NCBI GenBank assembly: GCA_964574525.1
Contig: CAZNOE010000003.1
Location: forward strand, 1 to 45,893
DNA length: 45,893 nucleotides
From: an uncultured Bifidobacteriaceae bacterium
GTDB lineage: Bacteria; Verrucomicrobiota; Verrucomicrobiia; Limisphaerales; JADLHS01
Direction: 5' to 3'
Part shown: in pieces, positions 18,911 through 45,658 of the stretch
Position numbering within the stretch: position 1 is the first letter of the stretch
How the letters are laid out: each line of letters starts with the position of its first letter
Notes under the pieces: generated by a model
Seen by the model: only the letters and a program-made list of their open reading frames with translations
What the model was told of the DNA's origin: nothing
The model's database searches: none
Translations under genes and position numbers: made by a program

Positions 18911-18944
18911 CTGGCAAACCTTGAGTTCGCGCCAAGTCACTGTC

Positions 18945-26576: not shown

Positions 26577-26606
26577 ATTCGCGTCACCCTATGAAAGGAC
26601 TAAATC

Positions 26607-27275: not shown

Positions 27276-27282
27276 ACCAGCC

Positions 27283-27543: not shown

Positions 27544-27549
27544 AGCAAT

Positions 27550-29238: not shown

Positions 29239-29242
29239 AACC

Positions 29243-30163
29243 ATGCCGGCACCCCGAATACAAATCATCGGCGAATTGATGAACCACTCCTTTGCCCGCG
29301 CCCGGCGCGCGTGGCTCGATCGCGACATCAAGGGCTACCAGAAGCTGGCCCGGGTGCAGGTTGATCTGGGCGCGAGCTTTCTGACGCTGAATCTGGACGG
29401 CACCCAAAATCTTCAGGTTCGACCGGAGGAGATGCTGGCCTTCCTGCCCGAATTGATCCCTGGAATTCAGGCGGAAGTTTCCGTGCCGCTCTCGTTTGAC
29501 AATCCGTGGGTCGGCTACCACAAAGTCGCCTTGCAGCATTATGATCGTTCGATTGGCGGTCCGCCGATCATCAACTCGCTGGCCGCCTCGCGCAAGGAAC
29601 TCAACGAGATGATTGAGCTGGTTGGCGAATTCGACACGTGGGTGATCGTGATGGCGTCGGAGCGGTTCACTCCCACCGGCACGGCGCAATGCCTCAGCGC
29701 ACCGCACGCCTATGAAGCCACGCGCCAGATGGTGGAACTCTTGCGAAAACAAACCGGTCGTCGCAATGACCAGATCATCGTTGACCCCGGACTCGCGCCT
29801 GTCGGCGCGGACACTTACGGCTTGGTGAACATCGGGCTGGATACGATCCGCCTGATCCGGAAGGACCCGGACCTTGCCGGAATCCACATTTCCGTCGGGC
29901 TGACCAATTTCTCCTGGGGCACGCCGATGGAACTGCGGGTGCGGCTGGAGCGCGCCTACCTGACGCTCGCCGCGGAGGCGGGACTCGACATGGCGCTCGC
30001 AAATCCGGAAAAAAATCCCCAACCGCTGGAACCGGAGGATCCTCTCGTCGCGCAATTGCGTCGCGCCTTGGAAACCGGCCGGCCGCAGGACGGCGAGACG
30101 CAGGAACATGCGGGCTATCGGCAGGCCGAAGGCATCATGGAGATCTGTAACGATGCTCTCTGA
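29243..30163 (+). CDS. Pterin-binding (dihydropteroate-synthase-like) methyltetrahydrofolate:corrinoid methyltransferase
   Basis: ATG at 29243 lies 4 nt after the upstream stop. IIGELMN, FLTLNLDG, LSFDNP, IINSL, IVDPGL and SVGLTNFSWG match the MeTr/AcsE/MetH-folate-module barrel pattern. Confidence 0.8.
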   Translation: MPAPRIQIIGELMNHSFARARRAWLDRDIKGYQKLARVQVDLGASFLTLNLDGTQNLQVRPEEMLAFLPELIPGIQAEVSVPLSFDNPWVGYHKVALQHYDRSIGGPPIINSLAASRKELNEMIELVGEFDTWVIVMASERFTPTGTAQCLSAPHAYEATRQMVELLRKQTGRRNDQIIVDPGLAPVGADTYGLVNIGLDTIRLIRKDPDLAGIHISVGLTNFSWGTPMELRVRLERAYLTLAAEAGLDMALANPEKNPQPLEPEDPLVAQLRRALETGRPQDGETQEHAGYRQAEGIMEICNDAL

Positions 30164-31481: not shown

Positions 31482-31529
31482 GAATGATGATGCATCTCCG
31501 CACGGTTCGGCCATATACTTGAGTCAAGC

Positions 31530-33179
31530 ATGCCTGTCCAACTCACCATCAACTCACAGACTCTCGAGGTTGCTGCCGGGCCATCGCTCTTCGACTGCGC
31601 CGAGCAGTTGGGCGTTCATGTGCCAACTTCCTGCCACAAACAGGGCAAGTGTCGTGAATGTCTGGTGGAAGTGGTCGAGGGGATGAATTTGCTCTCGCCA
31701 CTTTCTCCGGAGGAAAAATATCTCAAGGAAAATTTCCGGCTCTCGTGTCGCTGTCACATCAAAGCCGATGCCGGGGCGGTGCACTGTCACACGATGCGGC
31801 GCGGTCGGATGCAGATCGAGGAACATGCCAGCGGCCTGCGGGACACGACTGCCATCGCACCCGATCCCTCGGTGACGCGCGACGGCGAATGGATTCTGCT
31901 CGACGGCGAGCCGCTCACGCGCGCCACTGGGCCAATCCACGGCCTGGCGATGGATCTGGGCACGACGACGGTGGCGTTGCGGCTCATGAATCTGGAGTCG
32001 GGTGAACTGGTGGCGCGGAGCGCGTTTGAAAACCCGCAGCGCTTTGGCGGCTCGGACATCATGGCGCGGATTCATTTCGATACGCACAACCCGGGCCGGC
32101 TGCTGCAACGCACGCTGCTCGGCTACCTTCAGCACGCCATCGAGGAATTTCCGGTTGATCCGCAAACGATTTACGAACTGGTTGTGTCGGGCAATTCCAC
32201 AATGCGTGATCTGTTCTTCGGACTGAATGTTCACAGCATCGGCCAGAAGCCTTACCATTCGTTGACTCAAGTGGAGTTGCTCGCGGGCCAACGAACCTCC
32301 ACCAGCCTGTCAACCAAAGCGCGCCAGTTGCGTCTGCCGATCCATCCCGACGCGCGCGTCTATGGCCTGCCGCTCATCAGCGGTCACGTGGGTGCGGACG
32401 CCGCCGCCTGCCTGTTGGCGATGGACCTGGCGAACGAAGAACGGCTCGTGGCGCTGATGGACATCGGCACAAACACCGAACTCATTCTCGGCAACAAGCA
32501 CAAGATCATGGTGGCCTCCTGTCCCGCCGGACCCGCGTTCGAGGGCGGCGGAGTGGCGTGCGGGATGCCGGCCTTGCCGGGCGCCATCGAGCGGATCACC
32601 CTCCTCGACGATGGCCGGATTGAAACCCGCGTCATCGGGGACGCGCCACCCGAAGGCATCTGCGGCTCCGGTCTGGTGGATCTGTTGAGCGAACTGCTGC
32701 GCACCGATCGGATGAATGCGCTCGGCCGTTTCGAGCACGGTGAGGACGGCTTCGTCGTGGATGCGAAACATCAAATCATCTTCCGCGAGCGGGACGTGAG
32801 CGAGCTGGCGCAGGCGAAAGGCGCAAACGTGGCGGGCTTGCACATCCTGTTCAAGAACTACGGCGTGCGGTTTGAGGATGTGGAAGTGTTTTATCTTGCG
32901 GGCGGCTTTGCGCGGCATCTGGATATTGAGGCGACGCGGCGAATCGGTTTGGTGCCGGCCATCGAACCGTCACGCATCGTGCAGGCGGGCAACATGTCGG
33001 CGCAAGGCGCGATGCTGGCGCTGCTTTCGCAAACCCGCCGCGAGCAACTGGAACGCTTGGTCCGGGCCGCAGTTCATGTGGAACTGGAAACGGACCTGGC
33101 TTTCTTTGATTACTTTGTCGCCGGCTGTCAGTTCCAGCCGGTGGAGTCGCTCGGTCAATTCAGTTCCGCCATTTCTTAG
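31530..33179 (+). CDS. RACo-like corrinoid reductive activase: N-terminal plant-type [2Fe-2S] ferredoxin plus an ASKHA ATPase domain
   Basis: ATG at 31530. SCHKQGKCRECLV...LSCRC gives the Cys4 ferredoxin pattern. GLAMDLGTTTVALRL and LMDIGTNTELILG are ASKHA phosphate-1/2 motifs. ICGSGLVDLL is typical of RACo/DUF4445 proteins. Confidence 0.85.
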   Translation: MPVQLTINSQTLEVAAGPSLFDCAEQLGVHVPTSCHKQGKCRECLVEVVEGMNLLSPLSPEEKYLKENFRLSCRCHIKADAGAVHCHTMRRGRMQIEEHASGLRDTTAIAPDPSVTRDGEWILLDGEPLTRATGPIHGLAMDLGTTTVALRLMNLESGELVARSAFENPQRFGGSDIMARIHFDTHNPGRLLQRTLLGYLQHAIEEFPVDPQTIYELVVSGNSTMRDLFFGLNVHSIGQKPYHSLTQVELLAGQRTSTSLSTKARQLRLPIHPDARVYGLPLISGHVGADAAACLLAMDLANEERLVALMDIGTNTELILGNKHKIMVASCPAGPAFEGGGVACGMPALPGAIERITLLDDGRIETRVIGDAPPEGICGSGLVDLLSELLRTDRMNALGRFEHGEDGFVVDAKHQIIFRERDVSELAQAKGANVAGLHILFKNYGVRFEDVEVFYLAGGFARHLDIEATRRIGLVPAIEPSRIVQAGNMSAQGAMLALLSQTRREQLERLVRAAVHVELETDLAFFDYFVAGCQFQPVESLGQFSSAIS

Positions 33180-33180
33180 C

Positions 33181-34437
33181 GTGAAAATTTTCGACCCCAA
33201 TCCAAAAGTCACCGTGACCGATAGTGAGTTTGGCCGGCTCCTGGGTTTTCCTCCCGGTCAGGAATGGGGAGAACGGGTGATCGAACTCGCCGCCTGGGCG
33301 CGTGAGTGGTACGCCGCGCACGGAAAACCCTGGGTCCATACGCACGAGGCGGAAGCCATTGAGGTCGGCGAAAATTCTGTGCGGGTGGAGAATATTGAAT
33401 TCAAGAGCCGGGAACTGCGCGACCGCTTGACGAAGGCCAAGGCCGCGGGCGCGGTGCTGGTCGCAGCGGGTGCCGGCGTCGAGGCTGAGGAAGAGGCGCA
33501 GCAACGATGGAAGACAGACCGTCCGGATGAATATTTTTTTCTGGAGGTCTATGCTTCCGCCGTCGTGGAGCATTTGATCACCACGACCGGCGCGCGTTTG
33601 TGTGACTGGGCCGATCATCAGAAAATGGTCGTGCTCCCGCACTACAGTCCGGGTTATCCGGGGTGGGAATTGGAGGATCAACACGCGTTGTTGACGCTGC
33701 TCCGCCGCAGCCGCGAGCCGTTTCCGTTGCATCTCGAAGTGCTGGCTTCGGGCCAGTTGCGACCCAAGAAATCGCAGTTGGCGTTGTTCGGCCTGGCGGC
33801 GAAAAATTCAGCGACGCCGCAACCGGCGGAATTGATTCCGTGTCACCATTGCAGCTACACGCCCTGCGCTTATCGCCGCGCTTCGTATCGGGAAACGGCT
33901 TATTGCGTTGATGGTTCACCGGTGCCAGACGGCGCCCCGCTCAGGCGCAATGGCATCCCCAAACCCGTCGTGCCTTTGAAACGGGGCTTTCGGTATTCGA
34001 TCGGCGAAAAGGCTCTCCGCCGGTGGGCCGAGGAATATTTGCAAATCGAACCGGCTGCGAATGGCGACCTTCGCGCGCGGTTTCGTTATCACGGCAGCAC
34101 TTGCAGCAACATGGGCACGCCATTGGCGTACGATTTCTCGGTTTGGTTGGGTTGCGCCGCGGGCGGGTATCGCATCACAAAAACCGCTTGCGCGCCTGCG
34201 GTGGAAGATAGTGGCGTTGAAGCCACCTGCAGCTCTATTGAAAGTCCGGAGCGGCATCTCGCGGAGGTCGCGAACCAACCGCCAATCATCGGCCGCCATC
34301 TGGACGATGCGGTGCAATGGTCGCCGGACATTCTTCCCTCCGGTTGCCTGTGCAAGGAAACGGATCGTAATCACAAATGGAAACTCGTTCTCCAAACCCT
34401 CCATTACCGGCTGGCTCACCATGAAGAAAACGCTTAA
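33181..34437 (+). CDS. MetH-type activation (AdoMet-binding reactivation) domain fused to an unknown Cys-rich C-terminal domain
   Basis: There is no in-frame ATG until about aa 130. GTG at 33181 lies 1 nt after the RACo stop. The N-terminal ~200 aa (DSEFGRLLGFP...EYFFLEVYASAVVEHL...LPHYSPGYPGWELEDQ..L) match the Met_synt_B12 pattern. After that come CHHCSYTPC and about 190 aa with several conserved-looking Cys (HGSTCSNMG, SGCLCKE) that I cannot place. Confidence 0.65.
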   Translation: MKIFDPNPKVTVTDSEFGRLLGFPPGQEWGERVIELAAWAREWYAAHGKPWVHTHEAEAIEVGENSVRVENIEFKSRELRDRLTKAKAAGAVLVAAGAGVEAEEEAQQRWKTDRPDEYFFLEVYASAVVEHLITTTGARLCDWADHQKMVVLPHYSPGYPGWELEDQHALLTLLRRSREPFPLHLEVLASGQLRPKKSQLALFGLAAKNSATPQPAELIPCHHCSYTPCAYRRASYRETAYCVDGSPVPDGAPLRRNGIPKPVVPLKRGFRYSIGEKALRRWAEEYLQIEPAANGDLRARFRYHGSTCSNMGTPLAYDFSVWLGCAAGGYRITKTACAPAVEDSGVEATCSSIESPERHLAEVANQPPIIGRHLDDAVQWSPDILPSGCLCKETDRNHKWKLVLQTLHYRLAHHEENA

Positions 34438-35326
34438 GGAAGCGCTCAAAGAACGACGCCTCGTGTGCGATGGCGCGATGGGCACGCAGTTGATGCTCGC
34501 CGGCCTGGAGCAGGGCGCGTGCGGCGAGATGTGGAATCTCACGCACCCCGAACGCGTGCTGGCAATCCAACGCAACTACGTGGGAGCCGGTGCGGATTGT
34601 CTCATCACAAACACTTTCGGCGGAAACCGGCTCATGCTGACGCGCCATCGTCATGCACAAGACCTGGCCGAACTCAACCGCGCCAGTGCAAGGATCGCGC
34701 GCGCCGCTTTTGGCGACAAAGAGGGCTTCGTCCTCGGAGACATCGGGCCGGCGGGCGGGGTTTTGGAACCCTACGGTGATTTGAAGGCGGAAGATGTGGG
34801 CGCCGCATTCCTGGAACAGGCGAAAGCGCTCGTCGAAGGCGGAGTGGACGCGATCATCATTGAAACGCAGACCGCGCTGGAAGAATTGGGACTGGCCATT
34901 GATGCGGCCAAGGCGGCGGGCGCACCGTGCATTATCGGCTCCCTCGCTTACGACCGTTCGCCCGACGGAACTTTTTTTCGGACGATGATGGGTGTTTCAC
35001 CGGAGCAAGCGGCGGAATACGTCCAGGAAAAAGGCGTGGCCGTTGTGGCGCTGAACTGCGGCACCGGCATGGACATGGATGGGGCCGAACAGGTCATCCG
35101 CCATTACCGGGCGAATTCCAGTTTGTTCACGATGGCCCAGCCCAACGCCGGACTCCCTGTTTTGGAAAATCTCAAGGCGGTTTACAAGCAGACGCCGGAC
35201 GAGATGGTGGAACGCCTCCCGGACGTTTTGACCGCCGGCGCCAACATCGTCGGCTCCTGCTGCGGCAGTACGCCCGACCACACGCGAGCCATCCGTCGCA
35301 TCGTCAATCAATACAACCACCGTTAA
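34421..35326 (+). CDS. Homocysteine-binding S-methyltransferase domain protein (MetH Hcy-module / BHMT-like, zinc-dependent)
   Basis: ATG at 34421 gives a 17-nt overlap with the upstream gene. CDGAMGTQL, ITNTFGGN, IIETQ, ALNCG and GSCCGSTPDH include the three Zn-ligand cysteines of Pfam S-methyl_trans. Confidence 0.85.
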   Translation: MKKTLKEALKERRLVCDGAMGTQLMLAGLEQGACGEMWNLTHPERVLAIQRNYVGAGADCLITNTFGGNRLMLTRHRHAQDLAELNRASARIARAAFGDKEGFVLGDIGPAGGVLEPYGDLKAEDVGAAFLEQAKALVEGGVDAIIIETQTALEELGLAIDAAKAAGAPCIIGSLAYDRSPDGTFFRTMMGVSPEQAAEYVQEKGVAVVALNCGTGMDMDGAEQVIRHYRANSSLFTMAQPNAGLPVLENLKAVYKQTPDEMVERLPDVLTAGANIVGSCCGSTPDHTRAIRRIVNQYNHR

Positions 35327-35827: not shown

Positions 35828-36769
35828 TTATGACAATGCCTCCCGGCTCGCCACCGTTACGAACGGGACCGGCAACGAACCGAACCGCACGGGATCCGTT
35901 CCAAAGAACCGGTAAACGACCCCGTCCTGATCGTAATTAGAGCCAAAGCGGTAATACGGCACGCCGATCCATGGCGTCATGACCTGCTGGAAGCCCCAGA
36001 CGAACCCGTAGTCATCCTCGAGGTTCGTCCCGTCAATCTCGTGAGCATCAGCGGTCCCGTTGTCGATATACCACCGCTCGCCGCCGGTGTGGTAAATGAG
36101 ATCGCTGGAGTCGCGTTGCCGGATGCCCCGAGTGATGCCGGCCAGAAAGCCCCGGCCGGCGATGTTCGCCAAGGTGTAGGTTCCCTTGGCTTGCGCCGGC
36201 TTGGCCTCACTGTAAGCCGCGTGCAACCGGTAGGGCGACACGTTGGTCTCCGCCGCGTACTGCTGCCAGTCCACCATGCAGGCGCCGGCAATGGGCCCGT
36301 TGGTTGCCTCGATGGTGATACGGCACGACGTCCGGAACGGCATTGGGAGATAGCAATTGTAACCCGCGCCAAGCGAATTCGTCAGGTGCTCGAAAGGGGC
36401 ACTGTCCAGGCGGTACGGGTCCAGGCCGAGGAGGACACCGAAGAATTTCTGCATGCTCATCGCGACGCGCGGCGTGGCCGCGTCATCGGCATAGATGCGC
36501 AGCACGGGGCTCGCGGTTTTCGGGTCGGGCTTGAGCCAGAGGTGACGCACGCAGCCCGGACCTTGCGCGTTGAAGAGGTCCAGGCTCTGGCTCGGGGCAA
36601 GGTTGAACGTGGTGGTGTTGCGTTGCGCCTTGAACTGTGCGGGGAGCTGGATCAGCGCAAAATTCGGGTCCTGGAATGTCGTCGGTTCGGCCGCCGACAA
36701 GTTGCCCAGGGCGGCAACCAACAGCAACGCGAGTGCGTGCGGCACATGGTTAACACGTTTCATAATCAT
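35828..36769 (-). CDS. DUF2961 / GH172-family glycoside hydrolase (short form), secreted
   Basis: ATG at 36767-36769 with a signal peptide ending ...ALGNLSAAEP. GPGCVRHLWL, YNCYLPMPF, VDWQQY, GRGFLAGI and EDDYGFVWGF follow the DUF2961 jelly-roll pattern. It is a paralogue of 39167..40702. Confidence 0.75.
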   Translation of the reverse strand: MIMKRVNHVPHALALLLVAALGNLSAAEPTTFQDPNFALIQLPAQFKAQRNTTTFNLAPSQSLDLFNAQGPGCVRHLWLKPDPKTASPVLRIYADDAATPRVAMSMQKFFGVLLGLDPYRLDSAPFEHLTNSLGAGYNCYLPMPFRTSCRITIEATNGPIAGACMVDWQQYAAETNVSPYRLHAAYSEAKPAQAKGTYTLANIAGRGFLAGITRGIRQRDSSDLIYHTGGERWYIDNGTADAHEIDGTNLEDDYGFVWGFQQVMTPWIGVPYYRFGSNYDQDGVVYRFFGTDPVRFGSLPVPFVTVASREALS

Positions 36770-36842
36770 CGACTGTCAATGTCCGCATCCGGAATACGGA
36801 ACGGCTCGGCCAACGCAAAGGCTCCCATAAGCCGGGGCTCCT

Positions 36843-36886
36843 GGCAATCCGACCCTGCGCAGCAAACATCCGGGTTTGCGCAAAAG
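36843..36886 (-). promoter_or_regulatory. Conserved 44-nt intergenic element, copy A (contains the palindrome TTTGCGCAAA), upstream of the short GH172 gene
   Basis: 38 of 44 positions are identical to 44409-44452, in blocks ggcaatccga / gcgcag / aaacatccg / gtttgcgcaaaag with fixed spacing. It lies 74-117 nt upstream of the ATG at 36769. Confidence 0.6.
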
Positions 36887-36970
36887 TCCGCCCCGGGTTC
36901 GACGGGTTACGCAGAGTCGCCAGCGCCTTCAATTCAAAGACAGAGGTACGAGGGCTAAACCGAGCCGCGA

Positions 36971-39109
36971 TTACGGCCTGCTCCACTCGTGAGCCTCTTC
37001 CCCAACCCCAATGACCGGGAAGGAGCTGATGCGCAAGCGGGCGGCCCCCATCGGGATCAACGTGATCGTCTCCTCCTTCTCGTTGGACTTGACCGGGCTG
37101 TCCTGCAGCACCGCGCACAGGCCATACTGGTCCAGCGTCCATTGCGGAATGGTCCGGGCCTGCATTTCAAGTTGGATCGGGGTGCCCTTTTGAGTCCAGG
37201 GCATGTCGTCGACCGGCCAGTCACGCTGATGCACCTTGAGGCGGGAATCTTCGGGTTTCTCCCGGTCGAGCACCAATCCGTAGTTCCAGGGTGTGGTGGG
37301 GTAAATCTCCGTTGCGGGCCACCTGTCGCTGCCGCCAAACCGCACGTAGTTCTCGCCGATCTTCAGCGAGTAAGTCAATGGCCCGCGGTCCACCGACACG
37401 CTGTGGTGATTCTTCTCCCAGACACGAAATCGAACCTTCATGGGCAGCGTCAGCTCCAGCTTGTCCCCGTTGTTCCACTTGCGCGTGATCACGATGAACT
37501 GGCGTGGCTTCGCCTCCACGGTCACCGGCTTGCCGTTGATTGCCACAGCGGGCCGCTCACACCAGCCGGGCACACGCAGGTAGAGCGGAAACGTGGCCGC
37601 CGCCTGGGCTTGAATCGTGAGCGTCACTTTCTCATCGAATGGATAATGAGTAGCCTGGTCGAGGGTGACCGTCTTCCCGTCGGCCACCTTCGCGGTGACG
37701 GTGCAATCGTTATAGAACATGGCGGCCAGTCCGTTGTCCGGCGTGGCGTACCAGAGGTGCTCGGCGAAATAGGGCCAGCCCTGCCCACAGTTATGCTGGC
37801 AGCAACGGTGGCTCCAGGGGTTCATGTCGAACTTCGACCCAACGTTGTTGATACCTGGATTGTGATTCTGCCTATCGGAAACAACCTGGTTGGGGGCCGT
37901 CAGGTAGCGCACGCCCGTGAAGTCGGCCGTGAGCGCCGCGGGCAGCATGTTGTACGCCGCGTCCTCGCAGCCGTCGGCCCAGAGCAAGTCGCCGGTGATG
38001 GCGATCAGCTTTTCGTCGGAATGCATCTTCTCCACGATGCCGCAGGTTTCGATACATTGCCGCGGATCGTCGTAGCCCTTCCGGCAGCCCTCGTCTCCGC
38101 CGAACATCCCGCCGGGCACCTGGCCGTAAGTATCGCGCACCTTCTCCCAGTTGCGGTAGGCCGATTGCAGATCCTTGGGCTCATGCGATTGGAGCCACCA
38201 CGTGGCACCCTCGCCGAAGCACTGGGAGATGTTCACGTTGTGCCAATCGTAGATGATATCCTCATCCCAACGCGCGGTGCGCCGGTGGTTCTTTTCGGCC
38301 AGCTCGAGCAGCCACTTGTCGCCAGTGCGGTTGTAGAGCCAATAGATGCTGGAGAGGTTGTCCCCGCCGCGCATCTTCGGCCACCAGCCGAGCAGGTACT
38401 TGTCCTCGAGCACGCCGTGCAGGTACTTGAAGTATCGGGTCATCAACTCGATGACGCGCTTGTCACCGGTAGCGCTGTAGTAGTCTTGCAGGCAGCAGAG
38501 CATGATCATGTTAGGCCACAGGTCATCGCGACCCGCCACGTCCGACTCGATGCCCTTGCGCCCCTCGTCCGGGCCAAACCACCCATCCGGCTTCTGGCTG
38601 GCTATCGCCCCATCGATCCACACCTTCGCTTCGGAGATCATCTTCTCATCGCCAAGCACGTAGGCGCAGTTCAGATAGCCCTTGAGCCAGTATGGCGATT
38701 CTTCCCAGCCGTGGTCGCCCCGGCCCTGCGGATCGAGCCACGAGTTGCCTTCCTTCTTGAGATACCCGCTGATCTCGCCGAGGTGGCCGTGAAAACCGTC
38801 GGCCTGCAACCGGAGCTGCTTGCGCAGCCAGCCGCGCGGCCGGATCGAACCCACTGGCAGTTTCAGCAAAGCGTCGGGCTGCAGCGGTGCGCGGTTGCCG
38901 ACGTAGTGGTCATTGTGCTCCCCCGTCGGCGGCCGGTCCACGACTGTCGCTGGTCCCCTCCGCTCCTTCTCTTCCACACCGTAGGCGGGGCACAGGGTCG
39001 CCGTGGCCATACTCCAAACCGCCGCCACCCATGCCATCTGGCGCAGCCCTTTCGCTGCCGCTCCGCACCGGTCGCGGAACCTGGCCATCAGCTTGTTGTC
39101 CCGCCTCAT
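36971..39109 (-). CDS. GH127-family (DUF1680, HypBA1-like) beta-L-arabinofuranosidase-type glycoside hydrolase
   Basis: ATG at 39107-39109; the start and signal region are uncertain. CIETCG and HRCCQHNCG match the Glu/Cys3 zinc site and Cys-nucleophile region of GH127. An (alpha/alpha)6-like N-terminal half is followed by beta-sandwich tails. Confidence 0.85.
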   Translation of the reverse strand: MRRDNKLMARFRDRCGAAAKGLRQMAWVAAVWSMATATLCPAYGVEEKERRGPATVVDRPPTGEHNDHYVGNRAPLQPDALLKLPVGSIRPRGWLRKQLRLQADGFHGHLGEISGYLKKEGNSWLDPQGRGDHGWEESPYWLKGYLNCAYVLGDEKMISEAKVWIDGAIASQKPDGWFGPDEGRKGIESDVAGRDDLWPNMIMLCCLQDYYSATGDKRVIELMTRYFKYLHGVLEDKYLLGWWPKMRGGDNLSSIYWLYNRTGDKWLLELAEKNHRRTARWDEDIIYDWHNVNISQCFGEGATWWLQSHEPKDLQSAYRNWEKVRDTYGQVPGGMFGGDEGCRKGYDDPRQCIETCGIVEKMHSDEKLIAITGDLLWADGCEDAAYNMLPAALTADFTGVRYLTAPNQVVSDRQNHNPGINNVGSKFDMNPWSHRCCQHNCGQGWPYFAEHLWYATPDNGLAAMFYNDCTVTAKVADGKTVTLDQATHYPFDEKVTLTIQAQAAATFPLYLRVPGWCERPAVAINGKPVTVEAKPRQFIVITRKWNNGDKLELTLPMKVRFRVWEKNHHSVSVDRGPLTYSLKIGENYVRFGGSDRWPATEIYPTTPWNYGLVLDREKPEDSRLKVHQRDWPVDDMPWTQKGTPIQLEMQARTIPQWTLDQYGLCAVLQDSPVKSNEKEETITLIPMGAARLRISSFPVIGVGEEAHEWSRP

Positions 39110-39166
39110 TCGCTATTCACTTTTCCTGGTTTGTGAATCAATGCCCTTCGCGCAGGAACGCCGCCT

Positions 39167-40702
39167 TTACTCGACCACGCAATTGATCGCCCAGATCAGC
39201 GCATCGCGGTTCTTCTGGTTGTTCGTCTTGATGACCAGCGGGTTCGCGCCCTTTTTCAGAGTGATGGGAATGCTTGCCGTCTTGAACTCGGCGGCGTGGT
39301 CGAGGGTGGCGATCTTTTGGCCGTTCAGGTAAATGATGGCCCAGTTGTCCAGGCCGAGTCGTAGGGAGGCGGTTCGGTCGGTTTCACTTTGAAGAGTGCT
39401 GCGGAGGTAGGCGGAGTGGGCATCCATCGGAACGCCGGGGCGCTGGACGTAGGTGTTGTCGAGACGGACCCAGCCATACTGGCTCTTGAATGTGCGGACT
39501 TCATAGTCTGTGCCGCCGTAGCCGAGCTTATCCGGCAGGGACGCTGCGGATAGCTGCTTCACGAGGTCATCAGCAGGCGCCTGAAAGACATCGAATTGAT
39601 GGCCGTCGCGGAACAAACCGATGGCTTGCCATTCCCCGGGGCTGGTTACTTGCGGAGCCCTCGAGCCGGGAACCTTGTAGAAATAGGAAACCGCCTCGTA
39701 GTCATCGTGCCGGCTATTGGAGGTGAAGAGCAGTGACGAGCGGAACAGGATCGGGTCCGGGCCGAAGAATCGGTAGTAAACGCCGTCCTGATCATTCGGG
39801 CTGCGGTTCACCTGATAGGGACAGCCGGCCCAGCGGGTCTGATAGTCATTGAAGCCCCACGAGAAGCCAAAGTCATCCTCCACGTTCCACCCGCAGATCA
39901 TATGCGGGTCAGTCTGGCCATCTATCAGCAGGCGCACGCCGCTGTTGTGGAACACCATGTCGCTATGGTCCTGCTGCCGCCAGCCCATGATGTAACCAGC
40001 CAGAAAGCCGGTTCCCTCGGTCGTTGCGATGGGGAACGGTGCAGCCGGTGGTGCGGGCAGCGCGATATTCCGCTGCGCATGAAACCGCAGCGGCGTCAGT
40101 TCCACAGGCCCCCGATACTGCTGCCAATCCACCGTCCCGGCACCACGTCTTTCATTTTCACTGTAGATCGTGATCCGGCAGCTTTTGGAAAAGGGAATCG
40201 GCAGATAGGAGTTCCAGCCGGGTGACGCCTTCTGCGAAATGTTTGCGTTGTTCTTTACCGTGAAGTTCGGAAACGTCGCCAGGCCCGCGCTGTCGATGTG
40301 ATAGTCCGGAAAGCCCAGCAGCACGCCGAAAAACGAGCGGAAAGGCATGCGGACTTGCGGCTCAGCGGTATCGTCCACGAGGATTTCGATATCCATGCCC
40401 GCCAAGTCATACTGCTGGCCAAAGACGAACCAGAGATGCCGCACACAGCCTGCGCCTTGCACATTGAAAACTTCGACGGGATGTCCCTTCGTTGCCGTAA
40501 TATCCGAATTGGTCCGCCGGGCGCGAAAGTTCGTCGGCAGTTGCAGCAGCGGCACCGCCGGATCGGCGAAAGTCGCCGGGAACGGTTCGACCGCCACTCC
40601 CGGGCCGGCATTCTGGGCGGGTGCCCGATGCACGAGAATCCAAAGGGACGCCACGATTACTCCCGTCAACATGAAGCATTGTTTCCAAGTTCTCTTCATC
40701 AT
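39167..40702 (-). CDS. DUF2961 / GH172-family glycoside hydrolase (long form) with an extra C-terminal beta-sandwich domain
   Basis: Signal peptide MMKRTWKQCFMLTGVIVASLWILVHRAPAQ. GAGCVRHLWF, WNSYLPIPF, VDWQQY, GTGFLAGY and EDDFGFSWGF are present. About 150 extra aa end ...IYLNGQKI...LKKGANPLVIK. Confidence 0.8.
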   Translation of the reverse strand: MMKRTWKQCFMLTGVIVASLWILVHRAPAQNAGPGVAVEPFPATFADPAVPLLQLPTNFRARRTNSDITATKGHPVEVFNVQGAGCVRHLWFVFGQQYDLAGMDIEILVDDTAEPQVRMPFRSFFGVLLGFPDYHIDSAGLATFPNFTVKNNANISQKASPGWNSYLPIPFSKSCRITIYSENERRGAGTVDWQQYRGPVELTPLRFHAQRNIALPAPPAAPFPIATTEGTGFLAGYIMGWRQQDHSDMVFHNSGVRLLIDGQTDPHMICGWNVEDDFGFSWGFNDYQTRWAGCPYQVNRSPNDQDGVYYRFFGPDPILFRSSLLFTSNSRHDDYEAVSYFYKVPGSRAPQVTSPGEWQAIGLFRDGHQFDVFQAPADDLVKQLSAASLPDKLGYGGTDYEVRTFKSQYGWVRLDNTYVQRPGVPMDAHSAYLRSTLQSETDRTASLRLGLDNWAIIYLNGQKIATLDHAAEFKTASIPITLKKGANPLVIKTNNQKNRDALIWAINCVVE

Positions 40703-40727
40703 CTGATTCCTTTTGGTAAGTATTAGG

Positions 40728-43700
40728 CTATCGGTGAGCCACCCTGGTCCCGGCCGGGACGATCGACACGGCCTCGTCCGGTGGCAGCGAAAGCGTCAAC
40801 CTGCCGGTGGCCGCTTCGACGCCTTTCTTCATAGGAACGCACCCCTCCATGGTGACCCTGTAGGTATCCACTCCTTTGATGTCGCGCCAGTCCTCGGGCA
40901 GCAGCCAGGACTTGTTCTCATAACCTTCACGGCTATAGGCAATGATCTCCTTCTCCATCCGCCAGAGGGCGGGCACGAACAGGTTGTCGTTCTCGCGCAA
41001 CACGAAATCGCCTTTGCGGATGATGTTCTTGCCGTCTTCAGTCCGCGCCACGACTCCGTCGCTGTAATAGAGCGCCTCGTTCTCGAACTTCACCCGTTCG
41101 TGACGACTGAGGAAATACCACGGCAGGGTGGTGCGGCAGAACATCCCGAGAAACCCGGGCATCCGCTCCTTGTCTTCCTTCCAGATTTCCTCTCCGTGCA
41201 TGCTGGAACCGAAACGGAAGTCGCCGTCGCCGTCGCGACTGGTGCGGCCTCTCGCCCCCAGGCATTCCGGAATCGCCATCTGGTTCCATGAATACCACCA
41301 CGACATCGGCTGCAAGCCGACGAAGTGTTCTCCGGGCGGGTGGGCCCAACCGGTTCCCTCGCCGGTGACATCGAACCCGCGCTCGCGCCAGTAATGGAAG
41401 ATCTTGCGCTGGGTCTCCACCAGCCTCTCCGGACTGTATCCGCCGTTCTCGGGTTTGGCGTGCCACGGGCTGAGCGGCTTGGCTCCCTCGTCCTGGGCGA
41501 TGAAGACATCAACGTGGATGGTGTGCCCCTCCTTCAACTCGGGGATCATCGCGATGAGCTTGTCAATCCGCCGCTGGGCCAGTCCGGCCGCCCATTCGTT
41601 GGGATAGACCACCGTGTAAACCGGCTCTCCCTTGATCTGGCTGGTGCGGGAGTAGGGCTTGCCGTTTTCATCCTTGGAAATGCAATCCTTCGCCAGGTAT
41701 TCGTCCCACACCGGACTCTGCTCGTAGGCGTCCGTCATGTTGATATGCAGACTGACGGTTGTGTTGTATTTCCGGCCCTCGCGGATGAGCCAGCGCAGGC
41801 TGTCCAGTGCGGTGGCATCCTGAGGTCGTTTGAGTTTGGGGTTCACCTCGTCCCACGCCGGATAGCCGTGGTCGTGCCCACCCTTCTGCCAGCCGACGAG
41901 ATAGATGATCTTGGGAATCCCGCGCGTCAGGTTGTCGGTCTTCCGGATCACTTCGAGGGCTTGCTCCAAGGTGCACATGACGCGGTCTTCCGTCCGGAAC
42001 TCGGGCAGGTTCAACTTGGCCAGGCGCTCGACGGGCTCCCCCTCCATGCCCAGGAAAAGCTTCATCACCAGATTCTGGTGATATTCCCGGTAGAACGGCC
42101 TCACCACCACCTCCGTGGCGGCAACAAGTCGCTTGCCCGGCAGACGGATGGCCGCTTCAATCGTCGCGAGCCCTCCTTCGCGAGCAACCACCCGGTCGCC
42201 TTCGATCGCGACCACCTGCACACCGCCGCTGGCATCCATGGTCCGAGCTTCGAGCACCGCTTGGGAATGCTTGAGGACGCGTCGGGAGCCGTCCGCGTAG
42301 ATGCCGGTGAGTGTGAGCTTCCCATGGACCTTCGGCTCCAGCACGGGGTTGAGCACCTTCGGCGAAACCGAGATTTCGATCCGCTCCAACTCTTGCAGTC
42401 CCGTCGCCGACGGTGGCAGGGGCGCTGTGATCACCTTGGCCTCGACCACAGGCAGCCATTTGAAAACTGCCGCTTCTTCAACTGTCGCAATGCCAGGTGG
42501 CATCACTTCAAACTCGGCGACACAATACTCGCGGTCGCCGCGCAGGCGGTCGGCGTTGTCAAACTGCACGCGTTCCCCACCGGACGAGAACATGCCCACC
42601 CACACTTCGTACTTACCCGGCTGCGCGTCCGCCGGCACCGCTATGGGGAACGGTCCTTCGCGGACGAATGCGCCCTCCGGCCATTCACTGGTCGGCAGGT
42701 CCGGTTCAAAATCCGCGCCGATGTGGCGCCCGTCGGGGCGGACAACGTGGACGAAGGTCTGCAGATCTTGCGCCGCGGGGCCACTGCTGTGGAAGGTGTA
42801 GGTGGCTTGCACGGTATCACCGGCGGACACCCGGCTTCGGTCCAGCGTCACCTGCGCAACTGCCGGCTTGAAACCGGCTCCCGCCATCTTCACGTCCACC
42901 GGCGGAATGTCGAGCGCCTTGCCATCCACCGTAAGCTCAATCACGCTGGCAATGTCACGGCGGCCCTCCTTGGGCACCGTGATGGAGATTCCTTCATCCG
43001 ACTGATCCAGCTTTAGCTCGCCGCCGCTTAATAGAGTGGAACTTCTGACTTTCACCGGCAGCGGCGGCAGCTTCAGCGCGCCCTTCTTCGGCCATTGCAT
43101 GACGAAGATAAATATCCGGTTGTCCTTGCAGGTCGAGACACCCCAGTGACCAGGCTTGAACGGCCCGCCCCGGGTGCCATAGATACCTCTGCCGTACATC
43201 TTCAGCCAGGCGCCCATTTCCTTCAGCTCTTCCACCTGCCGGGGTTCGATGCGCCCGTCGGCCATGGGCCCTATGTTCAAGAGCAGATTTCCGTCGCCGC
43301 CCACCGTGTGCAGCAGCATCTGGAGGCACTGCTTGACCGATTTCAATTGGTCGTTTGGTTTCCAGGACCACTGGGTGCCGATGGTGATGCAGGATTCCCA
43401 GGGGCGTTCCCGCTCAAAGTCACCGATGAACTGCTCGGGGGTGCTGTAGTCGCCCACCGTCCGCTGCAGGGTTAGTTCGCGCCCGCCCGGCGCGCCGTCC
43501 GAATACAGGCGGTTGTTGATCAAAATATTCGGCTGCAGCGCGCGCAGGCCTAGCATCACCGGAAAACCTTGCGCCTTCTTGATGTAATCCGAGCCATCAA
43601 ACCACATCGTCAGCAGCGGTCCGTAGTTCGTAACCAACTCCTCGAGCTGATTCCGCATATAAACCATGTAGCGTTCATGGTTGGCATTCGGCTTTGCGTC

Positions 43701-44276
43701 TCCGGCTCCGACGTCGAGCGCCGCGCGGTGATACCAATCCCCCGCGCTGTAGTAGGTGCTGAACGCCACGTCGTGCCGCGGACAGGCCGCTGCCAGTTCC
43801 TTGAGCACATCCCGCTTGAAAGGCGTGTTGCCGATATGGTGGTCCGTGTACTTGGATGGCCACAGGCAGAACCCGTCATGGTGCTTGGTCGTGATGATCA
43901 GGTACTTCATGCCGGCGTCACTGGCCGTCTGCGCCCAGGCGTCGGCGTTGAAATTCGTGGGATTGAATCGCTGGTAGATCTGGTCGTATTCCTCGATCGG
44001 CGTCTTCGTGCCGCGCGACCAACTGAGTTCCTGCCCCGTCAACGTCACCGGCCCCCAGTGGATGAACATGCCGAAACGCATGTCCTGCCATGCCTTCACC
44101 GCTTTGGGATCCGCCTTGGGCCAGATTCGGTCATCCCCCTTGCTGCCCTGCGCTAGAGACGAGATGCCCTTCACCCCCGCGCCGATCGGGGCCGAACCTG
44201 GTTCTTCCGCACCGTACGCGTGAAGGAGGGTGGTCATTGCAAGAATGACGGCTATTGCATGTTTAATAGTGAGCAT
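40728..44276 (-). CDS. Secreted fusion of a GH29 alpha-L-fucosidase (N-terminal) and a GH101/GH129-like (endo-alpha-N-acetylgalactosaminidase-like) barrel (C-terminal)
   Basis: ATG at 44274-44276 with signal peptide MLTIKHAIAVILAMTTLLHAYGA. GH29 motifs are RFGMFIHWGP, TTKHHDGFCLWPS and TMWFDGS. The C-terminal ~600 aa carry IIYLVGWQKGGHDHGYPAW, SLHINMTDAY, TIHVDVF and VTGEG, which I recall as GH101-type. That half is less certain. Confidence 0.75.
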   Translation of the reverse strand: MLTIKHAIAVILAMTTLLHAYGAEEPGSAPIGAGVKGISSLAQGSKGDDRIWPKADPKAVKAWQDMRFGMFIHWGPVTLTGQELSWSRGTKTPIEEYDQIYQRFNPTNFNADAWAQTASDAGMKYLIITTKHHDGFCLWPSKYTDHHIGNTPFKRDVLKELAAACPRHDVAFSTYYSAGDWYHRAALDVGAGDAKPNANHERYMVYMRNQLEELVTNYGPLLTMWFDGSDYIKKAQGFPVMLGLRALQPNILINNRLYSDGAPGGRELTLQRTVGDYSTPEQFIGDFERERPWESCITIGTQWSWKPNDQLKSVKQCLQMLLHTVGGDGNLLLNIGPMADGRIEPRQVEELKEMGAWLKMYGRGIYGTRGGPFKPGHWGVSTCKDNRIFIFVMQWPKKGALKLPPLPVKVRSSTLLSGGELKLDQSDEGISITVPKEGRRDIASVIELTVDGKALDIPPVDVKMAGAGFKPAVAQVTLDRSRVSAGDTVQATYTFHSSGPAAQDLQTFVHVVRPDGRHIGADFEPDLPTSEWPEGAFVREGPFPIAVPADAQPGKYEVWVGMFSSGGERVQFDNADRLRGDREYCVAEFEVMPPGIATVEEAAVFKWLPVVEAKVITAPLPPSATGLQELERIEISVSPKVLNPVLEPKVHGKLTLTGIYADGSRRVLKHSQAVLEARTMDASGGVQVVAIEGDRVVAREGGLATIEAAIRLPGKRLVAATEVVVRPFYREYHQNLVMKLFLGMEGEPVERLAKLNLPEFRTEDRVMCTLEQALEVIRKTDNLTRGIPKIIYLVGWQKGGHDHGYPAWDEVNPKLKRPQDATALDSLRWLIREGRKYNTTVSLHINMTDAYEQSPVWDEYLAKDCISKDENGKPYSRTSQIKGEPVYTVVYPNEWAAGLAQRRIDKLIAMIPELKEGHTIHVDVFIAQDEGAKPLSPWHAKPENGGYSPERLVETQRKIFHYWRERGFDVTGEGTGWAHPPGEHFVGLQPMSWWYSWNQMAIPECLGARGRTSRDGDGDFRFGSSMHGEEIWKEDKERMPGFLGMFCRTTLPWYFLSRHERVKFENEALYYSDGVVARTEDGKNIIRKGDFVLRENDNLFVPALWRMEKEIIAYSREGYENKSWLLPEDWRDIKGVDTYRVTMEGCVPMKKGVEAATGRLTLSLPPDEAVSIVPAGTRVAHR

Positions 44277-44408
44277 GTTCTCTTCGTTTTATTCTACGCT
44301 TTTCGACATTTACGATGGCTTGGTCGCGGGGTGCGCCGGAGGCCAACCTCTGATTCCCAGACCAGCACCAGCCACAGGAGCGACACGATCCCGGAATCCA
44401 CCTCTCCC

Positions 44409-44452
44409 GGCAATCCGATTAGGCGCAGAAAACATCCGCGTTTGCGCAAAAG
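44409..44452 (-). promoter_or_regulatory. Conserved 44-nt intergenic element, copy B, upstream of the GH29-fusion operon and just downstream of the regulator gene
   Basis: See copy A. It lies 133-176 nt upstream of the ATG at 44276 and 49 nt downstream of the regulator stop at 44501. Confidence 0.6.
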
Positions 44453-44500
44453 GATGAAGTCCTGATGGTGCGGGTGCTCCGTGCGTTGCGGGAACCAGGC

Positions 44501-45658
44501 TCAGGCCTTCGGTTCTTTGGACGCCGGGAGGTGATTTCGGCGGTAACTCGTCGGCGACCTTCCCTCCAACCTCCGGAAAAGGGCATGCAATTGCTGAAGG
44601 TGCTCGATGCCCAGGATTTCGGCGATCCGTTCCAGCGGGTAGTCGGTATGAAGCAACAGGTGCTTGATCGAGTCCACCATCCGCCGTCGGAGGAAAGCCG
44701 CCACGGAAGTCTGGAAATGCTCACGGAACCGGTGCTCCAGCGCCCGGCGGCAAACTCCGGCGGTGCGGGCCACTTCCTCCACCGTGATTCGCCTGCCGGC
44801 CGTGTTCCGAATGAACGACAGCGCCTTGATCATATGAGGATCGGTCACGGCTTCCCAGGCGGTGGACACCCGCTCGACCACGCCCAGCGGCTGAATGCGA
44901 GGCGCGGCTCCGGGATCGCGTCCGCGCATCAACTGGTCGAGCCGCTCAGCCAGGGCCGTCCCGATGCCCACCGCATCGGTATCGATGCTCGAGAGCGAGG
45001 GATGGGCGAGCTGGCAAAGCAGCGAATCGTTGTCAACGCCCAGAATGGAGAGTTGCTCGGGAACGGTGCGGCCGCATTCGCGGGCGGGTCCGAGGATCTG
45101 GGCCGCCCGCTCGTCGGTGGCGCACAGGACGGCGCAGGGGGTGGGAAGGGAAAGCAGGAACTGCCGTTCGGCTTCCTCGCCCTCCCCGCAGCGACCGCCT
45201 GCCCGGGTGGTGTCGAGGACGCGGGCGGGCTTGTGGCCGGCCCGCGCTAGCGCCGCCTGGAATCCGTGTTCCCGTTCAACGGAATAGACTGCATCACGGA
45301 AGCCGATGAAGGCGAAATGGGGGAAGCCCTTGCCGATGAAATACTGCGCCGCGAGCACGCCGACAGCCTTGTTGTCAGTGTCGGGAACGTCGTCCGGAGT
45401 CGGCCTGCCGGGCTCGTTGGCGCAGCCGACGACCGCGATCCCCTTTGCCGCCAACTTGGGCGAGAAACGCAGCCTGCCCGCCCGGGTGATCACCCCGTCT
45501 CCGTTCCAATCGCGCAGCCATGCGGGCTCCGCGCGATTCAGCCCACCCTGCTCGTAACGCAACCGCCAGCCGGCGAGCTGCGCGTAGCGCGCAATACCCT
45601 GCAGCAGGTCCCGCCCATACTGGGTCGAGCTTTCAACGAGAACCGCAACGATGCGCAT
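44501..45658 (-). CDS. XylR-like transcriptional regulator: periplasmic-binding-protein-type sugar sensor domain plus an AraC-family HTH
   Basis: Trimmed to the ATG at 45656-45658 (MRIVAVLVESSTQYGRDLLQGIARYA...). The C-terminal part has two AraC HTH units: ITVEEVARTAGVCRRALEHRFREH and LERIAEILGIEHLQQLHALFRRLEGRSPTSYRR. Confidence 0.85.
   Translation of the reverse strand: MRIVAVLVESSTQYGRDLLQGIARYAQLAGWRLRYEQGGLNRAEPAWLRDWNGDGVITRAGRLRFSPKLAAKGIAVVGCANEPGRPTPDDVPDTDNKAVGVLAAQYFIGKGFPHFAFIGFRDAVYSVEREHGFQAALARAGHKPARVLDTTRAGGRCGEGEEAERQFLLSLPTPCAVLCATDERAAQILGPARECGRTVPEQLSILGVDNDSLLCQLAHPSLSSIDTDAVGIGTALAERLDQLMRGRDPGAAPRIQPLGVVERVSTAWEAVTDPHMIKALSFIRNTAGRRITVEEVARTAGVCRRALEHRFREHFQTSVAAFLRRRMVDSIKHLLLHTDYPLERIAEILGIEHLQQLHALFRRLEGRSPTSYRRNHLPASKEPKA

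What the first reader, a model, noticed from the sequence alone, without database searches (positions are those of the whole stretch)
36843..44452. Conserved 44-nt intergenic element occurring twice in the GH29/GH172/GH127 locus
**Seen in the sequence.**
- 36843-36886 and 44409-44452 share 38 of 44 positions, in blocks ggcaatccga-N4-gcgcag-N-aaacatccg-N-gtttgcgcaaaag. By my back-of-envelope estimate this is far beyond chance for a 46-kb window.
- Both copies are intergenic, in the same orientation, and upstream of minus-strand genes. One is 133-176 nt before the GH29-fusion ATG. The other is 74-117 nt before the short GH172 ATG.
- The element contains the perfect 10-bp palindrome TTTGCGCAAA.
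- As minus-strand RNA it can fold as GCGC-AAAC / loop (CCGGAU or GCGGAU) / GUUU-(3-nt bulge)-GCGC. Of the six differences, two fall in the loop and bulge of this fold and four in the unstructured N4 spacer. None disrupts a proposed base pair.

**Inference.** It is either an operator for the adjacent XylR/AraC-type regulator or a conserved 5'-leader RNA hairpin. Copy A implies an internal promoter or processing site for the last gene of the operon.
Basis: seen in the sequence. Interest (0 to 1): 0.65.

Follow-up and report, generated by a model that had tools for sequence, protein, structure and literature searches.

The report
Tandem-repeat operator of a XylR-like regulator
The twice-occurring 44-nt element is most likely the DNA binding site, joined to a promoter, of the neighbouring XylR/AraC-type sugar regulator, so it is an ordinary transcriptional switch in front of two glycan-degrading transcription units rather than an RNA hairpin or a mobile repeat.

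Summary
36843-36886 and 44409-44452 share 38 of 44 positions, and no shuffle of the window reproduces this.

Read on the coding (minus) strand, the element is two direct repeats of TGCG-N8-GAT spaced 21 bp apart. It is not a palindrome or a hairpin.

The same motif lies 16-71 nt after the stop codon of the orthologous regulator gene in 8 of 9 ortholog lineages. These are uncultured Verrucomicrobiales with 56-68% protein identity, and the genes downstream of the site differ between them.

The invariant columns are the two TGCG boxes and the two GAT boxes. The second GAT box lies outside the proposed hairpin. The hairpin shows no covariation and no excess folding stability, and there is no Rfam match.

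The regulator is a full-length homologue of E. coli XylR. XylR binds ~37-bp sites made of two direct repeats next to a weak -35 and activates transcription.

The proximal GATTG overlaps a predicted -35. In a Thermoguttaceae site it reads TTGACA-N17-CATAAT.

Verdict: a XylR-family operator plus promoter, present twice, with copy A acting as an internal regulated promoter. This is a new member of a known kind. Binding, the inducer and the transcription starts are inferred, not shown.

The parts
44409..44452 (-). Site B: operator of two direct repeats. Minus-strand sequence CTTTTGCGCAAACGCGGATGTTTTCTGCGCCTAATCGGATTGCC. Distal half-site: TGCG 44448-44445, GAT 44436-44434. Proximal half-site: TGCG 44427-44424, GATTG 44415-44411.
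   Evidence: PWM 60.2 bits. It starts 50 nt after the stop codon of the regulator gene.
36843..36886 (-). Site A: second copy of the operator. Minus-strand sequence CTTTTGCGCAAACCCGGATGTTTGCTGCGCAGGGTCGGATTGCC. Distal half-site: TGCG 36882-36879, GAT 36870-36868. Proximal half-site: TGCG 36861-36858, GATTG 36849-36845.
   Evidence: PWM 52.0 bits. It lies in the 201-nt gap between the GH127 gene and the short GH172 gene.
44385..44413 (-). Predicted core promoter of site B: -35 TTGCCG 44413-44408 (overlaps GATTG), 17-nt spacer, -10 GATCGT 44390-44385. Predicted start near 44378. Inference only.
   Evidence: register taken from L039, TTGACA-N17-CATAAT. (nAnnnT preceded by TGG or CGG at the same offset in other element-bearing contigs). 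The consensus scan finds no canonical sigma-70 promoter here.
36819..36847 (-). Predicted core promoter of site A: -35 TTGCCA 36847-36842, 17-nt spacer ending in TGG, -10 GAGCCT 36824-36819. Predicted start near 36812. Inference only.
   Evidence: (the similarity to copy B runs on to 36823).
44501..45658 (-). Gene of the XylR-type regulator (385 aa): LacI/GalR-type sugar-binding domain plus AraC-type double HTH. Presumed binder of sites A and B.
   Evidence: E. coli XylR 4FE4, E 3e-39 over residues 5-373.
40728..44276 (-). First gene downstream of site B: secreted GH29 alpha-L-fucosidase fused to a GH101-like C-terminal part (1182 aa).
39167..40702 (-). GH172 (DUF2961) gene, 25 nt after the previous gene. 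Presumed same transcription unit as the GH29 fusion.
36971..39109 (-). GH127-like gene, 57 nt after the GH172 gene. Presumed last gene of the unit driven from site B.
35828..36769 (-). Short GH172 paralogue (313 aa, 43% identical to the long one). The gene downstream of site A.

Best explanation
The element is the operator of the adjacent XylR-type regulator (44501-45658, minus strand), fused to an activator-dependent promoter. On the coding strand it consists of two 21-bp direct repeats. Each repeat carries a TGCG box and a GAT box about one helical turn apart. This fits one AraC-type DNA-binding domain per repeat, with its two helix-turn-helix motifs in adjacent major grooves, and a dimer covering about 40 bp. 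The promoter-proximal GATTG overlaps the -35 hexamer (TTGCCn). When the regulator has bound its sugar ligand, it would recruit RNA polymerase to otherwise weak promoters. Site B would drive the GH29-fusion, GH172 and GH127 genes. Site A would be a second, internal regulated promoter for the short GH172 gene. Shown here: the repeat, its 21-bp direct-repeat anatomy, its conservation next to orthologous regulator genes, and the homology of the regulator to XylR. Inferred: binding by this protein, activation rather than repression, the identity of the ligand, and the positions of -35, -10 and the transcription start.
For: (1) Only two copies occur in the window, and none in shuffles. (2) Loci were chosen through the regulator protein, not through the motif. 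On that basis the motif is present 16-71 nt after the regulator's stop codon in the window and in the lineages of P0002, P0003, P0004, P0006/P0007, P0008, P0010 and P0011 (56-68% identity), although the downstream genes differ: GH29 fusion, GH101-like, and various Laminin_G_3 giants. (3) In the 9-site alignment the invariant columns are TGCG twice, GA(T) twice, plus an A and TT between them. The six differences between copies A and B fall in variable spacer columns. (4) Self-identity at lag 21 is 0.577, against 0.17-0.35 at every other lag from 5 to 29. (5) The regulator aligns end to end with E. coli XylR (4FE4/4FE7, E 3e-39). Ni et al. 2013 (PMC3561964) state that XylR binds ~37-bp sites of two direct repeats next to the -35 of promoters with poor -35 and -10 elements, and activates them. 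(6) A motif-found site in a Thermoguttaceae MAG (L039, PWM 40.6 bits) is followed by TTGACA-N17-CATAAT, where TTG is the TTG of GATTG. Relatives show TAGAAT, TATAGA or TATTAC 15-18 nt after TTGnnn. (7) More distant paralogues (43-46% identity, L008 and L009) carry a different box sequence (TGTCGCAAA-N3-GGAT, then TGTC 21 bp later) at the same place after their stop codons. The architecture is kept while the specificity changes. (8) The distance from the site to the start codon varies from 59 to 208 nt. That suits a promoter element, not a translation-linked RNA element.
Against: There is no binding or expression experiment. The predicted -10 hexamers in the window (GATCGT, GAGCCT) are poor, and the consensus scan finds no sigma-70 promoter at either site. 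A metatranscriptome contig of a related strain spans 44142-44597, so the element may be transcribed by read-through from the regulator gene, or the contig may come from DNA carry-over. One ortholog lineage (L108/L109, 63% identity) has no site within about 6 kb. L039 has a site but no regulator gene within the DNA held. The box sequence is unlike the E. coli XylR consensus. The rest of the source genome could not be scanned.
Confidence: 0.8

Rival explanations
1. The element is a binding site, but it works as a repressor operator, or it is bound by a transcription factor other than the adjacent XylR-like protein.
For: Without a mapped start, the site's position relative to the promoter is only predicted. 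L039 carries a good site and a near-consensus promoter that might not need an activator, with no regulator gene in the DNA held. L108/L109 have the regulator but no site nearby.
Against: The site follows the regulator gene in 8 of 9 lineages while the downstream genes change. The direct-repeat layout at a 21-bp period is that of AraC/XylR-type dimers, and E. coli XylR is an activator that does not bind DNA without xylose. The window's promoters look weak, as activator-dependent promoters do.
Confidence: 0.1
2. The element is a conserved 5'-leader RNA hairpin (GCGC-AAAC / loop / GUUU-bulge-GCGC) that acts in the transcript, for example in processing, stability or attenuation.
For: The hairpin can be drawn in both window copies, and 87.5% of pair cells are standard pairs across nine sites. 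A metatranscriptome contig covers site B.
Against: Pairing and covariation are no better than column shuffles (275 of 500). The closing C-G pair is present in only 2 of 9 sites. The single double change is at that pair. The RNAalifold covariation term is +0.42, with 0 compensated pairs. MFE z-scores run from -0.85 to +1.24, and each sequence gives a different MFE structure. There is no Rfam hit even at E<=1. The invariant GAT in the loop and the invariant GATTG 3' of the hairpin are unexplained by this reading. The predicted -35 overlaps the 3' end of the element, so it would lie upstream of the start.
Confidence: 0.03
3. The element is a REP/MITE-like dispersed repeat, or a chance remnant of a segmental duplication, with no regulatory role.
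For: In the source-like metagenomes, further contigs with unlike flanks match only the 44-48 nt element. More than two copies therefore exist in that population.
Against: Only two copies occur in 45.9 kb. The next PWM score is 8.9 bits, against 52 and 60 for the two copies. There is one copy per orthologous locus in about 210 kb of related DNA, always at the same place relative to the regulator gene. A strict-pattern scan of 185,579 species genomes found no genome with many copies, apart from unrelated Nostoc 21-nt tandem arrays. The conservation is box-like, spread over 56-68%-identical lineages, and not that of a recently spread repeat. The extra contigs share the same downstream promoter-like layout.
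Confidence: 0.02

Closest known systems
E. coli XylR operators IA and IF (xylAB / xylFGH promoters), with the XylR structures PDB 4FE4 and 4FE7
   Same: The regulator has the same two-domain build and aligns over its full length. Both kinds of site are ~37-40 bp, made of two direct repeats, placed next to or over the -35 of promoters with weak core elements, and present at two promoters of one sugar-utilisation locus.
   Different: The box sequence is unrelated: TGCG-N8-GAT here, against gaAa-a-a-AAT in E. coli. The two sites here are 7.5 kb apart in the same orientation, not 360 bp apart and divergent. The target genes are secreted GH29/GH101-like, GH172 and GH127 enzymes, not xylose isomerase, kinase and transporter. 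The organism is an uncultured Verrucomicrobiales bacterium. The ligand is unknown. Protein identity to XylR is low although the alignment is significant.
AraC araI (I1-I2) and other AraC/XylS-family class II activator sites (RhaS, RhaR, MelR, XylS)
   Same: Two ~17-bp half-sites lie in direct repeat at a 21-bp centre-to-centre distance. Each half-site has two conserved boxes one helical turn apart, and the proximal half-site overlaps the -35. This comparison rests on established knowledge of the family and on the remarks in PMC3561964.
   Different: The ligand and dimerisation domain here is a LacI/GalR-type periplasmic-binding-protein fold, not the AraC cupin. No distal O2-like looping site was looked for or found.

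Membership tests
XylR-type operator (site of an AraC-DBD + LacI/GalR-domain regulator) | A cognate regulator with an N-terminal periplasmic-binding-protein-like sugar domain and a C-terminal AraC-type double HTH is encoded nearby | tested here: met
   Pfam Peripla_BP_3 (8e-33) plus HTH_18 (3e-17). Full-length match to E. coli XylR 4FE4/4FE7, E 3e-39. The gene ends 50 nt from site B.
XylR-type operator (site of an AraC-DBD + LacI/GalR-domain regulator) | The site is about 37-40 bp and made of two direct repeats | tested here: met
   TGCG-N8-GAT occurs twice at a 21-bp period in all 9 sites. Lag-21 identity is 0.577, against at most 0.35 at other lags.
XylR-type operator (site of an AraC-DBD + LacI/GalR-domain regulator) | The site co-occurs with the regulator across genomes (phylogenetic footprint) | tested here: met
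   8 of 9 ortholog lineages, chosen by protein, carry it 16-71 nt after the regulator's stop codon. It is absent near L108/L109.
XylR-type operator (site of an AraC-DBD + LacI/GalR-domain regulator) | The site adjoins or overlaps the -35 of the regulated promoter | tested here: inconclusive
   L039 has TTGACA-N17-CATAAT with TTG inside GATTG. Relatives have good -10 hexamers 15-18 nt after TTGnnn. The window's hexamers are weak, the consensus scan finds no promoter, and no transcription-start data are available.
XylR-type operator (site of an AraC-DBD + LacI/GalR-domain regulator) | Ligand-dependent binding of the regulator to the site | not testable with these tools
   Needs EMSA or footprinting with purified protein and candidate sugars.
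XylR-type operator (site of an AraC-DBD + LacI/GalR-domain regulator) | Sequence matches the E. coli XylR consensus (gaAa-a-a-AAT twice), meaning the same specificity | tested here: not met
   The consensus here is tTGCGc.aAa.cgGAtgtTT..TGCG....a...GATtG, against the published XylR consensus. It is the same kind of site with a different specificity, so it is not a xylose-XylR box.
cis-regulatory RNA (leader hairpin or riboswitch) | A conserved secondary structure supported by covariation or by excess stability | tested here: not met
   shuffles reach the observed value 275 of 500 times; 0 compensated pairs; z from -0.85 to +1.24.
cis-regulatory RNA (leader hairpin or riboswitch) | A match to a described RNA family | tested here: not met
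   Rfam 15 at gathering thresholds on the whole window, and at E<=1 on both intergenic regions: no match.
REP/MITE-like dispersed repeat | Many copies per genome, irrespective of gene context | tested here: not met
   Two copies in the window, and one per orthologous locus. No multi-copy genome was found in the GTDB scan. Caveats: the full source genome was not available, and two to three further element-bearing contigs exist in the same samples.

The most novel reading that the evidence does not exclude
As reported for E. coli XylR, where one dimer can hold two separate operator duplexes, a single regulator dimer might bridge sites A and B, which lie 7.5 kb apart. That would loop out the whole GH29-GH172-GH127 unit and couple the two promoters. 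More broadly, the regulator gene with its operator-promoter may behave as a portable cassette. It would have been placed in front of unrelated secreted glycan-binding or glycan-degrading genes across Verrucomicrobiales, and its operator-promoter would have been copied here to wire in an extra gene.
Probability: 0.1. Interest if true: 0.4.

Novelty: new member of a known kind. Interest (0 to 1): 0.3.

Why it matters
The work gives a concrete, testable operator motif, tTGCGc-N7-GAT-N6-TGCG-N8-GATTG. It also gives a predicted promoter layout for a XylR-like regulator family in uncultured, sediment-dwelling and marine Verrucomicrobiales, a group with almost no described transcription-factor sites. 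With a complete genome, the position weight matrix would define the regulon. That regulon seems to comprise secreted fucosidase, GH101-like, GH172, GH127 and LamG-type proteins, and its members could help identify the inducing glycan. Mechanistically this is what one expects of an AraC/XylR-type activator, so it is useful annotation rather than a surprise.

Tried and rejected
1. RNA hairpin. I counted pairs on nine independent sites, ran RNAalifold, and folded each site against shuffles. There is no covariation or stability signal, so this reading was rejected.

2. Known RNA family. Rfam at gathering thresholds on the window, and at E<=1 on both intergenic regions, gave nothing.

3. Palindrome as an inverted-repeat operator. 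TTTGCGCAAA is perfect only in the window and in L112. It is broken in L001, L007, L011, L113 and L114, while the TGCG-to-GAT spacing is kept. Rejected.

4. REP-like repeat. A PWM scan of the window and of about 210 kb of related loci, and a strict-pattern scan of the GTDB species genomes, were run. Most of the 95 genome hits were chance matches in coding sequence or Nostoc 21-nt tandem arrays. Rejected.

5. Terminator of the regulator gene. The scan lists a weak stem at 44450-44435, but the number of terminator-like sites equals the shuffle expectation and no proper U-tract follows. Rejected.

6. Sigma-54 promoter. I tried to read GGCA...GC on the plus strand. The spacing is wrong and the strand is opposite to the genes. 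Rejected by eye.

7. Transcription-start mapping. Only assembled metatranscriptome contigs of related strains exist, with no raw reads. Uninformative.

8. Canonical sigma-70 scan. No promoter was found at either site. The promoter assignment therefore rests on comparison with L039 and the orthologues.

9. Literature search for XylR-type sites in Verrucomicrobia. Nothing relevant is in the library.

10. Linking recognition-helix changes to box changes in the P0014 and P0015 paralogues. HTH1 is conserved and HTH2 differs, but this cannot be assigned to a box without a structure.


Full report
**Observation**

The two stretches are as described. The plus-strand sequences are 36843-36886 (GGCAATCCGACCCTGCGCAGCAAACATCCGGGTTTGCGCAAAAG) and 44409-44452 (GGCAATCCGATTAGGCGCAGAAAACATCCGCGTTTGCGCAAAAG). 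They agree at 38 of 44 positions. A search allowing 3 mismatches finds only these two in the 45.9-kb window, and none in 100 dinucleotide-preserving shuffles. The similarity runs on at lower identity to 64 nt (36823-36886 / 44389-44452, 78%).

**Gene context**

All neighbouring genes are on the minus strand:
- A 385-aa regulator at 44501-45658, with a Peripla_BP_3 domain and an AraC-type HTH_18 domain.
- A 1182-aa GH29 fusion with a GH101-like C-terminal part, at 40728-44276.
- A GH172 gene at 39167-40702.
- A GH127-like gene at 36971-39109.
- A short GH172 paralogue at 35828-36769.

Copy B lies between the regulator gene and the GH29 fusion. Copy A lies in the 201-nt gap before the short GH172 gene.

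**Anatomy on the coding strand**

Read in the direction of transcription, the element is CTTTTGCGCAAAC-n-CGGATGTTT-n-CTGCGC-nnnn-TCGGATTGCC. It contains TGCG-N8-GAT twice, with the two units exactly 21 bp apart. Within a unit the TGCG and GAT boxes are about one helical turn apart. The six differences between the copies fall in the spacers within and between the units.

**Related loci chosen by protein, not by motif**

The regulator has orthologues of 56-68% identity in metagenomes and MAGs labelled Verrucomicrobiales or Verrucomicrobiaceae. I fetched their contigs.

- In the lineages of P0002, P0003, P0004, P0006/P0007, P0008, P0010 and P0011, the same motif lies 16-71 nt after the regulator's stop codon and upstream of the next gene on the same strand.
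- That next gene differs between lineages. It is a Laminin_G_3 giant of 1165-1966 aa, a GH101-like protein, or the GH29 fusion here.
- One lineage (L108/L109) has a convergent gene after the regulator gene and no site within about 6 kb.
- A position weight matrix built from nine independent sites finds exactly one site per orthologous locus in about 210 kb. In the window it finds only the two copies (60.2 and 52.0 bits). The next best score is 8.9 bits, and the shuffle maximum is 5.9.

**What is conserved**

In the gap-free alignment of nine sites, the invariant columns are T-G-C-G, one A, G-A, T-T, T-G-C-G, G-A-T and G. These are both TGCG boxes, both GA(T) boxes, and part of the A/T tract between the boxes of the first unit.

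Mean self-identity at a shift of 21 nt is 0.577. At every other shift from 5 to 29 it is 0.17-0.35.

The 10-bp palindrome is perfect only in the window and in L112. Elsewhere it is broken while the box spacing is kept.

More distant paralogues (43-46% identity, L008 and L009) carry a different box sequence at the same place after their stop codons: TGTCGCAAA-N3-GGAT, then TGTC 21 bp later. The architecture is a family trait and the boxes are specificity determinants.

**The RNA hairpin**

The closing C-G pair exists in only 2 of 9 sites, and no helix shows compensatory change. RNAalifold gives an unfavourable covariation term (+0.42) with 0 compensated pairs.

Folding energies of 61-nt segments are no better than shuffles (z from -0.85 to +1.24), and the minimum-energy structure differs from site to site. 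Rfam has no match at gathering thresholds or at E<=1.

The pairing potential follows from the conserved columns themselves. GCG is nearly self-complementary, and an A tract faces a T tract. The hairpin also cannot explain the invariant GAT in its loop or the invariant GATTG outside it.

**The regulator and its known relatives**

The protein aligns from residue 5 to 373 with E. coli XylR (PDB 4FE4/4FE7, E 3e-39). Ni et al. 2013 (PMC3561964) report the following for XylR:
- It binds ~37-bp sites, IA and IF.
- Each site is composed of two direct repeats.
- The sites lie next to the -35 of promoters whose -35 and -10 match the consensus poorly.
- Binding needs xylose.
- XylR probably activates by recruiting RNA polymerase, and it can loop DNA between two sites.

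The element here has the same size, the same internal organisation, and the same duplication at two promoters of one locus. Its sequence is unrelated to the XylR consensus.

**Promoter position (inference)**

A strict-pattern scan of 185,579 species genomes gave 95 stretches. Almost all are chance matches in coding sequence or Nostoc 21-nt tandem arrays. No genome has many copies.

Two hits are real:
- L080 is a Verrucomicrobiales MAG with the orthologous regulator gene adjacent.
- L039 is a Thermoguttaceae MAG, scoring 40.6 bits on the PWM.

In L039 the site is followed by TTGACA-N17-CATAAT, and the TTG is that of the conserved GATTG.

In the same register the orthologues show TAGAAT, TATAGA or TATTAC 15-18 nt after TTGnnn. 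The window shows TTGCCG-N17-GATCGT for site B and TTGCCA-N17-GAGCCT for site A.

Other element-bearing contigs from the same samples have TGG followed by CAGTGT or CAGGCT at that offset. This pattern is nAnnnT preceded by TGn, which looks like an extended -10.

It also explains why the similarity between the copies extends 20 nt beyond the 44-mer. The predicted starts are near 44378 and 36812.

A plain sigma-70 consensus scan finds no promoter at either site. That would fit activator dependence, but it leaves the assignment unproven.

**Transcript data**

The source is a sediment metagenome. Only assembled metatranscriptome contigs of related strains are available. One of them spans 44142-44597, across site B and into the regulator gene. 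That could be read-through transcription or DNA carry-over. No start sites can be read from it.

**More copies in the population**

In the runs closest to the source (coded X1 and X2) and in X3, further contigs match only the 44-48-nt element and have unlike flanks. Their depths are similar to that of the operon. The regulon therefore probably has more than two promoters. I could not show that these contigs come from the same genome.

**Conclusion**

The element is best explained as the tandem direct-repeat operator of the adjacent XylR-family regulator, joined to an activator-dependent promoter. It is present once before the GH29-fusion/GH172/GH127 unit and once as an internal promoter before the short GH172 gene.

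It works like the E. coli XylR sites IA and IF and the AraC I1-I2 site. It belongs to that kind by architecture and by its cognate protein, but it has a new box sequence and new target genes. It is a new member of a known kind. Binding, the inducer, the sign of regulation and the start sites remain to be tested.

Noticed in passing
window 44404-44454, as matched by contigs of the runs coded X1, X2 and X3: At least two further contigs carry the element with different flanks. 'Locus C' has flanks TGCTGTTAACACTGCCATGAACTACGCCTT and GCCACCAGGGCTGGCGGCACAAAAAAACCA. 'Locus D' has one flank that resembles a shortened 3' end of the regulator gene. Their depths are similar to the operon's, so the regulon is probably larger than two promoters.
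   Followed up: partly
window 36694-36953, in the related strain of runs X3 and X4: In a related strain the gap between the GH127 gene and the short GH172 gene is about 670 nt longer (record positions 3168 to 4095, against 259 nt here). Its copy of site A resembles copy B more closely...CGCAGAAAACATCCGCGTTTGCGC.
   Followed up: partly
L039 1-420 (Thermoguttaceae MAG JAVBLI010000036.1): A high-scoring site of the same motif sits directly after a transposase remnant. A near-consensus promoter (TTGACA-N17-CATAAT) follows, and then genes for an SDR, an aldolase-like protein, a second SDR and an FGGY-type kinase. No regulator gene lies in the 8 kb held.
   Followed up: partly
window 25446-35326, plus strand: A cluster resembling a corrinoid-dependent methyl-transfer system is convergent with the glycoside-hydrolase genes. 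It comprises a URO-D-like protein, an MTHFR-like protein, a pterin-binding protein, an amidohydrolase, a RACo-type corrinoid activator and a homocysteine S-methyltransferase domain protein. A possible link to demethylation of methylated sugars was not examined.
   Followed up: no
window 18984-19025, minus strand: This is the only other PWM hit above the shuffle range (8.9 bits): TTTGGCGAAAATCGCATTGTTTTTGTCGGCAATCGAATGGAA. It lies in the gap upstream of a DUF1559/N_methyl gene (18090-18935). It is too weak to call, and it resembles the TGTCGC variant of the paralogues.
   Followed up: partly
window 1082-2020, 4745-5524, 18090-18935; also 14498-14848 and 19107-19456: There are three paralogous genes for prepilin-like N_methyl/DUF1559 proteins. 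There is also a ~350-nt duplication at 88-89% identity between the gene at 14129-15271 and the gene at 19064-19777.
   Followed up: no
L108/L109 6001-7909: One orthologous regulator (63% identity) is followed by a convergent gene (a 250-aa minus-strand ORF at 7157-7909; its product was not checked) and has no recognisable site within about 6 kb. Its target promoter must lie elsewhere or has been lost.
   Followed up: partly
L012, L060, L069, L101 (Nostoc genomes): Tandem arrays of a 21-nt unit (TGCGTYGGCTTGGATTGTTAA) matched the search pattern by chance. They are unrelated to the finding.
   Followed up: no
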